The notes below the pieces were generated by a model. The model did no database searches. It had not been told where the DNA came from and saw only the letters and a list, made by a program, of their open reading frames with translations. DNA of 64,000 nucleotides from Harriotta raleighana (taxonomy: Eukaryota), in assembly GCA_050575255.1 (NCBI GenBank), contig JBNZDD010013722.1, forward strand, positions 5,450,186 through 5,514,185, given 5' to 3'. Below are positions 29,902 to 46,915 of the stretch, one piece after another (the first letter of the stretch is position 1; every line of letters starts with the position of its first letter). The translations under genes were made by a program, and so were the position numbers.

Positions 29902-30143
29902 CTCAGAAGTTTATATTTGGACACAAAAGCCTTGGTACAGTCTTCGTGTGAACACTTGTAGGGTCTCTCTCCTGTGTGTGAATATGAATGCACTTTCAAC
30001 TTCTCAACACTAGTGAAGATCTTCCCACACAATTGACAAGGAAAGGATTTTCTGGATTTGTTTTCACTACGTTTACGTTTCCCCGCTAGAACCTTCTGAG
30101 TATCCTTTACTTCTAAAAGATCACCAGGGATGACAGTGGCCAT
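29902..30143 (-). CDS. PLAG1: PLAG1 first coding exon (242 coding bp; exon extends 5' to 30267)
   Basis: [25 protein letters not shown] (NLS), finger 1 and most of finger 2; donor AG|GTATGG at 29901; acceptor ttttcag before 30267; phase matches the last exon. Confidence 0.96.
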
Positions 30144-31596
30144 CGCAGTCTACGGTACGCCTAGTATCTGGGCACTTGGGTTGTGCCCAACTGTAATGAT
30201 AAATATGGACTTCAGTTTCTTCCTTTTTCTGATGTTTCATGTGTTCAACGGATTTGGCATTTAGAACCTGAAAACAATGAAAGTTGTTGACAAAGTTGTA
30301 TTATGTTAGATATGAAGATAAGGTACGATCAGAGTCATATCAGATAAGATATGGTGTGATTGAGCTCACCTTGAATAAAACTGAACTGTTTGCTGCAGCT
30401 CTTGCTCCAACATCAACATTTGTAATTTTTGCAATCAACATCCCTATTAACAGACTGTGTGTATTAGCTCACCCCCATATTCCCAGATTATCAAGATTTT
30501 TACTGAAACATTTTTTATTGACTCATAAACAAAATGGGTTTAAAATGCCATTTTGAAAGAAATTATCTAATTGAATCTTTCCATACAATACACAGTTAAT
30601 CAAAAAACAATACAAAATGTTCACATAGAAATCCTTATGAAATAGGTTTGATCAAGAAGGTGCATGAATTCCTCAAAATAAAATACAAATTATGCTGTAA
30701 AGTGAAAATAATGACTGCAGTAAAATTCAGTATGTTGTTTTGTCTATTCAGGTGCTGAATAAGTTTATTCCATTAATAGGTATTTGTCGGCAAGTGTACT
30801 TAAAATCAGATTTTCACCAAAGTGCATATTGACAGCTTCTTTATAAGTCATGAATGAATTAAGAACTCATATTTATATAGCTCTTTATGGACAGGCTTGG
30901 ACACTGGGCAAGGGAGTAGGCCAAAGACATGTTCAAAGAGGCAGCATTTGAGCCAGGACTTAAACAGAAAGAGAGATGGGTAGCAAGATGGAGAGGGAGT
31001 ATCAGGGTTAGGGGGGATTAGATACAATAAAACACCCCAGTGAGATCCCCATTTGCTGAAATGTTTTTGTCTGATTATTCAGCCTACCTACTAAAACATT
31101 TTTCCTGATTCTACGCATACCATATTCCACAATTCCAGTAACATTTGTTTGTCCTCTTTGTCCCTCAGATTTTGCAGCTAGCACGCGAGGTAAATGTTCC
31201 TTAAATTTAGTTGCATCTTCGTAATAGAACAAGGAAGGAAATATTTTAGTAGGTATACTGTTTTCATGTTTAAGTCAGGAACAAAATGAATCAAATAGCA
31301 TTGGAAATTACTGTATAAATAAAAAAGTTACACACCAAAATCAATGTTAATATTATTTTGATATTATATATTTTTTGAATTGCTCAACAATATTTTCTAG
31401 CAATGACTAGTGCCTGAATAAAAATGTATTTTCCTCACCCTGGGAATCGTTCACGCCCATTTCATACAACTTGGGAGATTTTTATTAAAAAAGGAACAGA
31501 TACTGTAGTTGTATTTACAAACTGAAATTATTTATAGTGTACAGAATCTGTATGCAGAAAATTAGCTAGTACATAAACTTCAGGCTACAGGAATAC

Positions 31597-31730
31597 CTTC
31601 TTCGATTTCACTTTTCTGGTGGAAAACCAACGGACTCCACTTCTAATTTCAGATCAGCGGACTCTCTCAACCAGTCTCACTAATTCTTCCTGTGGGTGAC
31701 CAGAATGTACCATGTCCCATATTTGATGTT
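31597..31730 (-). other. PLAG1: Putative PLAG1 non-coding 5'UTR exon containing a 17-codon uORF
   Basis: Acceptor tttttcttag and donor AAG|GTATTC; sequence resembles the human PLAG1 5'UTR exon as recalled (GAAGA.T.A.TG.GACTGG.T.AGA; TTTTCCA.CAG). Confidence 0.65.
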
Positions 31731-33294
31731 CTAAGAAAAAAGCAGAATGTGAATTCGGAGTATTCAGTAAAGACTTGTAACCACAATTATGGAACTTAAT
31801 TTACTAAACAACGTTTGCAATTAACATTTTAGTTTACTCCTGAATTAAAAGGAAATTCGCCAGAAGAGATAAGGATCTTTGTGTTGTGAGTATATTTAAA
31901 TATTAGTAGGAAAACAAACTGCTACCAACCAAGCTTAGAACAAAATAAGTCAAGAAGGAAAATCTTCCTAACAGTAACCAGACAACTGAACAAAGAATCA
32001 AACACCTGTATCAGGAGAGAAGAAAATCACACAATATTAAATTACACAAGAGTGCAGAATATTTAGTCAATTTAGCCAATAAAGACCAAACATTAGATCA
32101 GAAGAAATCTACCCTCTTAATTAAAAAAGTTTTAATTGTATATGTTTTTTTTAAAAATTCAAATTTAGTTTAAATAAATTATTTTGCAGCTTCTCCCAGT
32201 AGTAATTGGTAAACCTGTGAAACTAGGCTACATGGACCCAGAAGGTTTCAAATTCTATGTCTGTCTAGTTAATGGTAAATGGAAACCAGGTAGCATTTCC
32301 ATTCCTGGTCATTATCTATCCAGTGCATGCAGGAAAGTGCTTGTGTGGACTTTAGGAAAGCTGTGTCATATTGTTCTGCTATCTTGGTACATCTAAAAGT
32401 ATTGGTCTGGGTTTAATTTCTCAATTTGATTTTTTTTTCTTCTTAATTGAAATCAGATTATTTTCTATCCAAGAAAGGCATTGGTAAATTAGTCTCATGG
32501 TAAATATTAAAATAAATTGTGTTGATGTTATATTGGGGACCAAATTATGCTATTTCTTGACAGAATTCCGTAATAAGGAATCTGAATTGTATAAGGTAGG
32601 TATACTTGTTAACTGGAATATGATGTCATATTAATCTGCGAAAAGTACAACTCAATCTACAGTACTTACATTCCTTATTTAGGAACCTTGTTAATCAATG
32701 TAAATCTATTTTGGGGCCCACTTTTTCATGCAGTGGGCCCCAACTCTTGGTTTACCACTCTATATATATATTTTTTACACAACTTTACTGTACTAAGCAT
32801 AGGGGCGTTCATTCGATTCCATTAACATTTATTTTCAAGGTCCATTTAATTTAATGCAATAAAGTCCAAGCATGATTAAAGGAAAATTTAATGAGTCATA
32901 AAAAATGCTGGCTATACAGTATTTTAAAGTTCTTTAAAATAAATTTATTTCAATTGGATCTGACAATGTTGTAAAATTATATTGAATATATTTCTACACT
33001 TCTATATTTCTACATTTTCTCTGTTCTTTGTGAAAAGAGTCCCACTATGGATTACCACTACAGAATGGTAGGAGTATACAACTTAATTGATGCCTACTTT
33101 CTGTTCGTGAAACGCGCTCTATAAATGCAATTTTGTTGTTGTTGTTGTTGTTCTGCAGCTACAGAAGCCACAATATTGACACTGATTTTATAAGTAGTGG
33201 TTAATCTTCATAGGAATCAAATTTAGTGATAGTGAGCTATTAAATGACACATATTGAACATTTGTTGTAGTAATTTATAAAATAATACATCAGT

Positions 33295-33976
33295 AGCAGG
33301 GCAGATAGATAAGGCAGTAAAAAAGGCATTTAGTGTATTGAGCTTTATTAGTAGGGGCATAGAGTTTAACAGTAGGGAAGTTATTCTTAATTTATACAAA
33401 ACAATGGTAAGGGCTCAGCTGGAGTACTGCGTCCAGTTCTGGGCACCTTACTTCAGGAAGGACATTAAGGCACTGGAAAGGGTGCAGAGGCGATTCACAA
33501 GAATGATTCCAGGAATGGGGAACCTTAGCTATGAGGACAGGCTGGAGAAGTTAGGACTTTTCCCATTAGAGCAGAGAAGATTACGCGGGGACCTAATAGA
33601 GGTCTTCAAGATCATGAAAGATTTTGACAGGCTAGATAGAGAAAAGTTGTTTCCGCTGGTAGGTGTGTCTGTGACCCGAGGTCACAGTCTTAAGATATCT
33701 ACCAAAAGAAGCAGAGGGGAGGTTAGAAGAATTTTTTTCACTCAGAGAGTTGTTCGAATTTGGAATGATCTGCCTGAAAGGGTAGTGAGGTCCGATTCGA
33801 TAGCAGCTTTTAAGAGAGAACTGGATAGGTATCTGGGGAAGACGGGTTTGCAGGGTTATGGGGAGAAAGCTAGTGATTGGGGTTAATAAAAGTGACATTG
33901 CTCTGTCAAAGAGCCGACACAGACTCGATGGGCCGAATGGCCTCCTTCTGTGGCGTAACCTTCTATGATTCTATGA
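33295..33976 (+). mobile_element. 5'-truncated CR1 LINE 3' end with uninterrupted ORF2 C-terminus
   Basis: ORF 33338-33886 (LYKTMVRAQLEYCVQFWAP..RRLRGDLIEVFKI..FFTQRVVRIWN), CR1 3'UTR gatgggccgaatggcctcct and (ttctatga)n tail. Confidence 0.92.
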
Positions 33977-34384
33977 TATAGTCAGTAATAAATCCACACT
34001 GCACATGCTGATTTATGCCAATATATAGGTTGTCATACATAGAAATTTTAAAATGATACTAATAGAGGTAAATTGTAAAATTCAACACAATGTCCTTAAA
34101 AATATGATTAGAACAAAATGAAAACATTTCCAATGAGTAAAAAATATACCATAGTACACACACCATCACCAGAATCAGACAAAGAAAAATGACTAATTAC
34201 TGAATTGTGAAAACATTTACATCTTTATTTTGTGTTCATCTACAATACCACAGTTGCACCACTTTACAGTACCATATAGGCTAGAAAGTGGTCTGGGATG
34301 TCCTCTCGATGTTAAATGAAATATAAGAATTATTAATTATTCTTATCTAAAAATTCTAAAGAGACCATTGGTGGCAATGACACT

Positions 34385-34565
34385 GGGAAAATTCCCTTCT
34401 CTTTTCAAATAGTGCCATGAGATCTTAAATATCCTCTTGAAGAAGCAGTAAGATCTCTGGTTAATGCCTCATCTGAAAGATAATGTTACTAGCAATGCAG
34501 CACTGCATTGAAGAGTCAACTTGGACTACAAGATCAAATCCCCAACATGAGATTGAACCCATAAC
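34385..34565 (-). mobile_element. Degenerate Deu-domain SINE
   Basis: aatagtgccatgagatct..ggttaatgcctcatctgaaaga..aatgcagcact; related copies at ~52255-52420, ~55930-56090, ~59210-59340 and ~62590-62700. Confidence 0.6.
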
Positions 34566-46194: not shown

Positions 46195-46426
46195 ACACAC
46201 ACACACACACAATCTCACACACACACACACACACACTCATCTTCAAATAAAACAAGTACACACACACACACATATATAGAAGGCAGAAAAAAACCTCCAC
46301 CCCATCCCAAAAAATTGGATCTGAAACTTTTTTGCAACAACTCGAAAACCCCAAGGAAGTTTCTAGCATCGAGTTTGAATCTAGTTTTTCTTCTATATAT
46401 TTTTGAGGGGGGTCGGAGGGGGGGGT

Positions 46427-46459
<33 letters not shown>

Positions 46460-46460
46460 G
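46195..46460. repeat. (CA)n microsatellites and poly-G tract in PLAG1 intron 1
   Basis: Directly visible (ac)n runs at 46195-46272 and a G-run at ~46406-46460. Confidence 0.9.
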
Positions 46461-46550
46461 TGAGAGTTAAGTTGTGTCCTAATTTCTCATTTTCTCTCGT
46501 TGTTGGGTTATTCATCTCCCCCAAATCTCTCCATGTCTCTCTCAGACTCT

Positions 46551-46708
46551 NNNNNNNNNNNNNNNNNNNNNNNNNNNNNNNNNNNNNNNNNNNNNNNNNN
46601 NNNNNNNNNNNNNNNNNNNNNNNNNNNNNNNNNNNNNNNNNNNNNNNNNNNNNNNNNNNNNNNNNNNNNNNNNNNNNNNNNNNNNNNNNNNNNNNNNNNN
46701 NNNNNNNN
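46551..46708. other. Assembly gap (158 N)
   Basis: Run of N. Confidence 1.
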
Positions 46709-46767
46709 ACCCTGATAATCTATTTCAAAACGGGCTGAACACCTGGAGAAATTTAACAGAAACTCAC

Positions 46768-46915
46768 CGCGGGACATTCAACATCTCTCTCCCGTGTTTT
46801 TTTCCGGCTTTAAGCGATTTTTCGATTTTTTAATATTTTTTTCCTCATATTTTTGTTTCACCGCGGGCCTAAAAATTGTTTGCTTTACCCTCCATCCAGC
46901 GGCCATTGTATACGC
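46768..46915 (-). other. PLAG1: PLAG1 exon 1 (5'UTR, contains a 42-codon uORF)
   Basis: Strong donor CCGCG|GTGAGT at 46767; lies in the CpG island opposite CHCHD7; resembles human exon 1 as recalled (ACAATGGC.GCTGGA..AAACAATTT..AGGCCCGC..AAATATGAG..GATGTT). TSS approximate. Confidence 0.8.

What the first reader, a model, noticed from the sequence alone, without database searches (positions are those of the whole stretch)
30121..46906. Candidate ancient system: a multi-exon uORF cascade controlling PLAG1 dosage
Synthesis: each leader exon I can identify (46768-46915, 31597-31730, 30144-30267) carries its own uORF, and each uAUG appears to have a positional equivalent in the human leader as recalled. 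Known: PLAG1 is a dosage-sensitive IGF2 activator, and oncogenic promoter-swap fusions replace exon 1 but keep the CDS. Inference: those fusions and alternative leader splicing would also delete uORFs, so translational de-repression may be an overlooked part of PLAG1 control. I cannot confirm that this is undescribed.
Basis: partly seen in the sequence, partly recalled or inferred. Interest (0 to 1): 0.78.

Follow-up and report, generated by a model that had tools for sequence, protein, structure and literature searches.

The report
Ancient upstream ORF in PLAG1 leader
The first exon of the growth gene PLAG1 in this cartilaginous fish encodes a 42-codon upstream reading frame that matches one known to be translated in humans, so it is probably an old brake on PLAG1 protein output, and it sits in the exon that tumour gene fusions replace; the brake itself has not been tested.

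Summary
The window holds PLAG1 of a chimaera-like fish. Contigs from a relative's probable RNA runs join the three leader exons as proposed. "Each exon has a uORF" is uninformative: the 10 upstream ATGs equal the shuffle mean (9.8). One element is strong: the 42-codon exon-1 uORF (46906-46778, first strong-Kozak ATG) matches the human Ribo-seq uORF c8riboseqorf50 (18 of 43 columns by eye, 11 of the first 15, both ending Cys-stop). ATGs at 46784/46777 recur in shark and skate isoforms. The ATG at 30240 recurs in amniotes, but its frame differs and fusions cannot remove it. Exon-2 equivalence with human was not testable. Best reading: a cis-acting translational brake (possibly also NMD) whose ORF layout, more than its peptide, is kept; rival: DNA-level constraint in the PLAG1-CHCHD7 bidirectional promoter. 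All 13 PLAG1 fusions in one series drop exon 1, but 5 of 18 PLAG1-activated tumours had no PLAG1 fusion, so de-repression is at most additive. New member of a known kind; the human uORF is catalogued. I found no paper on its depth or the fusion link. Three look-ups in this scan's earlier notes found nothing on PLAG1.

The parts
46768..46951 (-). PLAG1 leader exon 1; donor GTGAGT after 46768; 5' end not determined (46951 is the end of a relative's contig, 46908 in another run)
46778..46906 (-). uORF1, 42 codons, strong Kozak (A-3, G+4), stop 10 nt before the exon end; homologue of human c8riboseqorf50
   Evidence: alignment to the human peptide by eye
46869..46895 (-). nested 8-codon uORF inside uORF1 (adequate context); conservation not tested
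46810..46848 (-). nested 12-codon uORF; its ATG lies inside the Lys-Tyr-Glu codons of uORF1, residues shared with the human peptide
46782..46784 (-). uATG overlapping the last codons of uORF1; opens a 26-codon uORF into exon 2, or a 426-aa in-frame short PLAG1 if exon 1 splices to the last exon; kept in two bamboo-shark isoforms
   Evidence: (P0020, P0021)
46775..46777 (-). uATG directly after the uORF1 stop; opens a 28-codon uORF into exon 2; a skate isoform starts with the same Met-Ser-Arg
   Evidence: P0013
31597..31730 (-). leader exon 2 (134 nt) with strong-Kozak ATGs at 31720 and 31713, in frame with the ORFs from 46784 and 46777; stops at 31669-31667 and 31656-31654
29902..30267 (-). 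exon 3: 124 nt of leader, then the first 242 coding nt; main ATG at 30143 (strong Kozak)
30237..30260 (-). 7-codon uORF, weak context; no ATG at the aligned place in the amniote contig L003
30121..30240 (-). 39-codon uORF overlapping the main ATG out of frame, weak context; its ATG (11 of 13 nt around it identical) is kept in L003 but there opens a 27-codon in-frame uORF ending 6 nt before the main ATG
30150..30152 (-). TAG in frame with the CDS, two codons before the main ATG; same place in L003
22568..23831 (-). last coding exon of PLAG1 with the internal Met that starts the 419-aa short form
46949..46984 (-). CCAAT box (46984-46980) and GC box (46954-46949) upstream of uORF1: likely core promoter (motif matches only)
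47110..47178 (+). probable first exon of the divergent CHCHD7 gene (GC-rich, donor-like GTAAAG after 47178; start approximate); a CHCH-like coding stretch follows at about 51440-51541
   Evidence: sequence; Pfam CHCH E 0.0037, below the curated cut-off; no RNA evidence

Best explanation
The PLAG1 leader is a cis-acting brake on protein output that predates the split of cartilaginous and bony fishes. Shown: leader structure, a 42-codon uORF1 at the first strong-Kozak ATG, its homology to a translated human uORF, further ATGs at the end of exon 1 and in the coding exon that recur in other vertebrates. Inferred: scanning ribosomes mostly start at uORF1; those that leak or reinitiate meet the ATGs at 46784/46777 and 31720/31713, whose ORFs close about 180-195 nt before the main ATG, leaving room to reinitiate; the weak ATG at 30240 is a last trap (overlapping here, ending 6 nt before the main ATG in amniotes, either way poor for reinitiation). 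What is selected is probably the start, open frame and stop position plus the local nucleotide sequence rather than the peptide. Promoter-swap fusions remove uORF1 as a by-product, which may add translational gain to transcriptional activation, but cannot remove the coding-exon uORF.
For: Human c8riboseqorf50 is a single-exon 43-aa Ribo-seq uORF of PLAG1, classed 'conserved', with one MS study; only about 4-5% of catalogued uORFs, lncORFs and dORFs get that class. By eye 18 of 43 columns match with one gap, 11 of the first 15 (binomial about 1e-9 to 6e-8 at 8-12% background, ignoring the forced Met and the chosen gap), and both end Cys-stop. Only 4.3% of exon-1 shuffles hold a closed ATG ORF of 42 or more codons. 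Leader exons differ from the relative at 12 of 401 nt against 118 of 1521 in eight intron pieces (Fisher P = 0.0005). ATG 30240 is kept in L003 and in a fin-whale gene model (26 of 28 residues identical to L003). ATGs 46784 and 46777 recur in elasmobranch isoforms. Dosage-sensitive genes as a class have longer, more conserved leaders with more uORFs (PMC11057154). For layout over peptide: mammalian PhyloCSF is -7.25, the last 13 residues before the Cys are not conserved, both listed differences to the relative in uORF1 change the residue.
Against: No reporter, TE or non-human Ribo-seq result was found. The ATG count is at chance level. uORF1 staying intact in the relative is uninformative (63% by chance). 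The catalogue searched lists only one PLAG1 ORF, so the coding-exon uORF (27 codons in L003, above the catalogue's 16-aa floor) is not listed as translated. The 30240 uORF differs in frame between lineages. Exon 1 lies next to a divergent promoter, which can conserve DNA without any role of translation. The deep comparison of uORF1 rests on two species and on protein letters only.
Confidence: 0.58

Rival explanations
1. DNA-level constraint: exon 1 is part of the PLAG1-CHCHD7 bidirectional promoter, and the uORF1 start lies in a YY1/TISU-like word; the ORF and its peptide are conserved as passengers and translation is incidental.
For: Probable CHCHD7 exon 1 begins about 200 nt from uORF1 on the other strand; CCAAT and GC boxes lie 45-80 nt upstream and a TISU-like word covers the ATG (motif definitions recalled); PhyloCSF is negative; 7 of 11 residue differences to human in the first 29 columns need only one base change from the window's codon (by hand). 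The strict YY1 pattern I scanned for did not match.
Against: Length difference to human is one whole codon and both ORFs end Cys-stop although the preceding 13 residues have diverged; the human ORF is translated; conserved ATGs also occur 16 kb from the promoter (30240).
Confidence: 0.2
2. The uORF1 peptide itself is functional (a basic 42-aa microprotein, or a nascent peptide that stalls ribosomes), i.e. a true conserved-peptide uORF.
For: 17 of the first 29 columns identical over the chimaera-human distance (by eye); classed as protein-level conserved in mammals with one MS study.
Against: PhyloCSF below zero; the C-terminal part, which matters in many stalling uORFs (PMC7530721), is the unconserved part; two shared motifs coincide with nested ATGs (46848, 46784); no family match above cut-off.
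Confidence: 0.12
3. The main output is mRNA level: termination at uORF1, upstream of three exon junctions, makes the transcript a nonsense-mediated-decay target, so losing exon 1 stabilises the mRNA. Compatible with the best explanation.
For: The uORF1 stop lies 10 nt before junction 1 and 144 nt before junction 2; uORF-triggered NMD is established knowledge.
Against: No NMD data were examined; reinitiation at the main ATG would displace junction complexes.
Confidence: 0.2
4. The late exon-1 ATGs serve isoform choice: when exon 1 splices straight to the last exon, the ATG at 46784 starts the short PLAG1 lacking the first 82 residues.
For: 426-aa in-frame ORF in the modelled skip transcript; RefSeq isoforms of two bamboo sharks and a skate start with these residues.
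Against: These are predicted isoforms; the internal Met gives the same short form without the extension; no such extension among the listed amniote cluster members (30 of 874 members of the two large clusters were listed); the skip junction was outside the stretch laid.
Confidence: 0.08

Closest known systems
Human Ribo-seq ORF c8riboseqorf50 (PLAG1 uORF; GENCODE Ribo-seq catalogue as tabulated in PMC10032668, supplementary file 2)
   Same: Same gene, single exon, near-equal length (43 vs 42 aa), 18 of 43 columns identical, Cys-stop end.
   Different: Catalogued only as conserved in mammals; no function given in the row; C-terminal third diverged.
Conserved-peptide uORFs of animals (ESUCA set, PMC7530721; e.g. 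PTP4A1, KAT6A, SLC6A8)
   Same: uORF with peptide similarity across a wide taxonomic range in front of an orthologous main ORF.
   Different: Ka/Ks below 0.5 and sequence-dependent repression not shown; conserved part is N-terminal. Whether PLAG1 is in their list could not be seen (supplement unreadable).
ATF4/GCN4-type delayed reinitiation leaders (recalled)
   Same: Upstream uORFs followed by a uORF overlapping the main start (in this species).
   Different: First uORF is long (42 codons, poor for reinitiation), the overlapping ATG has a weak context, and the overlap is not kept in amniotes; no stress data.
uORF-rich leaders of dosage-sensitive genes (PMC11057154)
   Same: Long, conserved, intron-containing leader with uORFs on a growth-control transcription factor.
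   Different: A class-level statistic; it does not single out PLAG1 in the parts I read (abstract, section 7).
PLAG1 promoter swapping / enhancer hijacking in pleomorphic adenoma (PMC9405559, PMC11734380)
   Same: Exon 1 replaced, coding sequence kept.
   Different: Explained there by transcription alone; the passages read do not mention loss of a uORF.

Membership tests
PLAG1 orthologue | Best protein matches are PLAG1; C2H2 zinc fingers; neighbours MOS and CHCHD7 | tested here: met
   (490 of 501 to C. milii PLAG1); neighbour names from sequence likeness and recall
Translated uORF | Lies on the spliced mRNA upstream of the main ATG | tested here: met
   contigs of a relative join the three exons (RNA status of the runs is a guess, but the joins are exon-exact)
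Translated uORF | Ribosome occupancy | tested here: inconclusive
   Human homologue is in a Ribo-seq catalogue; nothing for this species
Conserved-peptide uORF (ESUCA definition) | Peptide similarity across orders in front of the orthologous main ORF | tested here: met
   (two species, aligned by eye)
Conserved-peptide uORF (ESUCA definition) | Ka/Ks below 0.5 against controls | not testable with these tools
   No nucleotide sequence of exon 1 from distant species could be fetched; indirect signs point away: PhyloCSF -7.25, 2 of 2 listed differences non-synonymous
Conserved-peptide uORF (ESUCA definition) | Not a fragment of a uORF-mORF fusion protein | tested here: met
   uORF1 stops inside exon 1; no long ORF starts at 46906 in three modelled splice forms
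Sequence-dependent (stalling) uORF | Repression lost on frameshift; conserved C-terminus | tested here: inconclusive
   C-terminal 13 residues before the Cys not conserved; frameshift assay not possible
ATF4-type delayed reinitiation | Short permissive uORF1 plus conserved inhibitory uORF overlapping the CDS | tested here: not met
   uORF1 has 42 codons; the overlap at 30240 is not kept in L003
ATF4-type delayed reinitiation | Induction on eIF2-alpha phosphorylation | not testable with these tools
   No data examined

The most novel reading that the evidence does not exclude
uORF1 is a gnathostome-ancestral brake that holds PLAG1 translation several-fold down (and may expose the mRNA to NMD); every exon-1-replacing fusion deletes it, so PLAG1 'promoter swapping' is also 'leader swapping', choice of partner and of acceptor exon sets oncoprotein dose, and germline variants in this exon could shift growth in people and livestock.
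Probability: 0.25. Interest if true: 0.72.

Novelty: new member of a known kind. Interest (0 to 1): 0.5.

Why it matters
PLAG1 drives IGF2, is lost in some Silver-Russell cases and activated in adenomas by exon-1 exchange (PMC9405559). A translated uORF whose peptide is still recognisable between a chimaera and human is uncommon (about 4-5% of catalogued uORFs pass even the mammalian test). It gives a precise, cheap test of whether fusions raise PLAG1 protein per mRNA and marks a 129-nt non-coding stretch where variants could matter. The general principle is known, so the gain is gene-specific.

Tried and rejected
Counting uATGs as evidence: rejected, chance level. Survival of uORF1 in the relative as evidence: rejected, 63% by chance. 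Protein searches with uORF1: no candidate, 0 hits among 1.84 billion representatives, no usable Atlas hit, one Pfam match far below cut-off (PIGBOS1, E 0.023); these libraries rarely hold uORFs, so the blanks mean nothing. Second copy of uORF1 in the own genome: only itself; no credible match of the three leader exons or the peptide in 32.6 kb at and upstream of the one paralogue found. More vertebrate DNA: no relatives held; exon-1 pattern 0 hits in viral and genome contigs; start-codon pattern gave 4 metagenome loci, 1 real PLAG1 (L003) and 3 chance matches dropped. No RNA holder was on record as RNA. RNA structure in exon 1: none beyond shuffles (z +0.87); Rfam only three tRNA-like hits; the bacterial promoter scan is irrelevant. 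Supplements: no PLAG1 row in the searched files of PMC4568590 (7 of 16 files not searched, one cut), PMC4739776, PMC6283423 (only 60 characters held); PMC11473369 gave gene-level rows only (3 of 14 files not searched); unreadable: PMC7530721, PMC13010147; the supplement of PMC13275300 (ORBL scores, peptide tiers) could not be seen. PMC10895648 names PLAG1 only in its reference list; PMC9748941 and PMC5564723 passages say nothing on leader translation. Structure prediction of the 42-aa peptide was not run.
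Full report
Gene and organism. The minus strand carries PLAG1: main ATG at 30143, first coding exon 30267-29902, last coding exon 23831-22568, 501 aa. Of 18 stored full-length proteins the closest is Callorhinchus milii PLAG1 (490 of 501; elasmobranchs 419-445, coelacanth 371), so the window is from a chimaera-like fish. A MOS-like kinase ORF lies downstream and a probable CHCHD7 starts divergently about 200 nt from exon 1 (weak Pfam match, no RNA evidence).

Leader structure. 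I laid 4 of 8 listed runs on 29300-47150. All are contigs, none on record as RNA. In X1 one 643-nt contig consists exactly of 46768-46908, 31597-31730 and 30267-29901; in X3 a 747-nt contig joins 46768-46951, 31536-31730 and 30267-29901, i.e. a 61-nt longer exon 2 in that organism. X5 covers parts of exons 2 and 3 in separate records; X8 shows none of these pieces in the cut table. The transcription start was not determined; CCAAT and GC boxes at 46984 and 46954 suggest it lies shortly above 46906, so the ATG at 46947 may be outside most transcripts (inference).

uORF inventory and chance. The 442-nt leader has 10 ATGs. Dinucleotide shuffles give 9.8 +/- 2.1, 96% of them have an ATG in every exon, and intron windows give 9.4. 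'One uORF per exon' is thus no evidence. The exon-2 ATGs are internal Mets of ORFs that open in exon 1. The first strong-Kozak ATG is 46906; it opens a 42-codon ORF that closes 10 nt before the donor (4.3% of exon-1 shuffles hold a closed ORF that long).

uORF1 is old. Supplementary file 2 of Sandmann et al. 2023 (PMC10032668; one row seen, plus main-text passages) lists one PLAG1 ORF, c8riboseqorf50: uORF, one exon, chr8:56211130-56211261, 43 aa, 'conserved', one MS study, PhyloCSF mammals -7.25. Aligned by eye with one gap, 18 of 43 columns match the window's peptide, 11 of the first 15 and 17 of the first 29, and both end Cys-stop; binomial tails are 1e-12 to 1e-6 depending on span and background, ignoring the forced Met and the chosen gap. 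That paper classes 758 of 7,264 ORFs as conserved, about 4-5% among uORFs, lncORFs and dORFs. That the human ORF lies in exon 1 follows from this homology and from my recall of the gene's coordinates. The signs favour ORF layout or nucleotide constraint over peptide function: negative PhyloCSF, an unconserved C-terminal third, two shared motifs that coincide with nested ATGs (46848, 46784), and both listed differences to the relative being non-synonymous (V7L, R31C; two further exon-1 differences were not displayed). No Ka/Ks could be computed.

Other uATGs. RefSeq-predicted isoforms of two bamboo sharks begin with the residues encoded from 46784 joined to the last exon, and a skate isoform begins like 46777; the same skip in the window gives a 426-aa in-frame ORF. 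In the coding exon, the amniote-type contig L003 (1 real locus of 4 pattern hits) keeps the ATG at 30240 (11 of 13 nt identical), the last 52 leader bases without gaps (35 identical) and an in-frame TAG two codons before the main ATG, but a 7-nt length difference turns the overlapping 39-codon uORF into a 27-codon in-frame uORF ending 6 nt before the start. A fin-whale gene model reads through the same leader frame (26 of 28 residues as in L003), and goat, coelacanth and paddlefish models begin two residues before the Met, as expected from that stop or from an acceptor there. The ATG at 30260 is absent from L003. For exon 2 I obtained no distant sequence; I recall a similar human exon with an early ATG, which is a lead only. 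In the relative, 3 of 4 exon-2 substitutions were not displayed and, by comparison of X1 with X5, probably fall in 31712-31730 where both ATGs lie, so even their short-range retention is open. Leader exons diverge less than introns (12 of 401 vs 118 of 1521, P = 0.0005; CDS 1 of 242; the eight intron pieces were picked from the displayed non-repeat rows, and the 88% filter understates intron divergence).

Mechanism. Most likely a cis-acting brake: initiation at uORF1 diverts most scanning subunits; leaky or reinitiating ones meet further ATGs whose ORFs close 181-194 nt before the main start; the weak ATG at 30240 is a last trap in both topologies. These steps are inferred from scanning rules (established knowledge), not measured. 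It is not an ATF4-type switch by the defining features: uORF1 is long and the overlap is lineage-specific. Rivals are DNA constraint in the bidirectional promoter, a functional peptide, NMD, and isoform choice.

Fusions. In Table 1 of PMC11734380 (section 5 and passages read) 13 of 13 PLAG1 fusions join a partner to exon 2 (11) or exon 3 (2), so all lose exon 1. But three further tumours have rearrangements near PLAG1 and two have PLAG1 activation without fusion, attributed to enhancer hijacking: 5 of 18 presumably keep exon 1. One fusion brings NFIB exons up to exon 4. Partner leaders were not examined and may bring their own uORFs. The coding-exon uORF cannot be removed. De-repression is therefore possible and additive, not required. 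The review PMC9405559 (passages) explains activation by promoter swapping and enhancers.

Novelty. Eight searches naming PLAG1 with uORF, upstream open reading, translation(al) efficiency, promoter swapping, untranslated exon or exon terms listed no paper whose title or abstract start concerns PLAG1 uORFs; most hits were seen as listings only. The library lacks most of the 1997-2014 PLAG1 papers, and I recall, without having seen it, an older remark that PLAG1 transcripts lacking exon 2 translate better; the idea may be partly in print. Supplements of PMC7530721 (abstract and passages read), PMC13010147 (nothing read) and PMC13275300 (passages read; PLAG1 not in main text) could not be seen and may already list this uORF with its range and constraint score. 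The class is known: dosage-sensitive genes have more uORFs and more conserved leaders (PMC11057154, abstract and section 7). Three look-ups in earlier scan notes gave nothing on PLAG1.

Verdict. Observation partly confirmed, interpretation partly supported: one deeply conserved, human-translated uORF in the exon that fusions replace, plus a few conserved ATGs, rather than a demonstrated cascade. New member of a known kind; interest 0.5.

Noticed in passing
window 31536-31596: A relative's contig (X3) extends exon 2 by 61 nt; the window reads AT, not GT, after 31536, so this splice form may be lineage-specific. The extension holds one more ATG (31574).
   Followed up: partly
window 30150-30152: The conserved TAG two codons before the main ATG could also be an alternative splice acceptor that would skip the coding-exon uORF; three gene models start right after it (P0032, P0093, P0218).
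   Followed up: no
L006 1190-1460 (G000:C13606): A PLAG paralogue has a donor-like site about 240 nt and an acceptor about 22 nt before its start codon, with a start context like PLAG1's but no stop at -9; possibly a short leader without the PLAG1 uORFs. The human PLAGL2 uORF (c20riboseqorf26) shows no clear likeness to uORF1.
   Followed up: partly
window 37809-38172: Near-exact 181-bp tandem duplication with a single N at the junction (37992); looks like an assembly artefact.
   Followed up: no
window 34871-34942, 49570-49642, 26218-26289: tRNA-like Rfam hits; the first lies in a very high-copy repeat, so these are probably heads of tRNA-derived SINEs.
   Followed up: no
window 47209-47506: 23-bp minisatellite (about 8 clean copies, then degenerate) just inside the probable first intron of CHCHD7, 300 nt from the PLAG1 start region.
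   Followed up: no
window 7536-8606: Intronless MOS-like kinase ORF on the minus strand, downstream of PLAG1.
   Followed up: no
window 44548-44825: Intronic stretch covered by low-depth contigs in two runs of the relative at about 93% identity; pre-mRNA or a conserved element, no junction seen.
   Followed up: no
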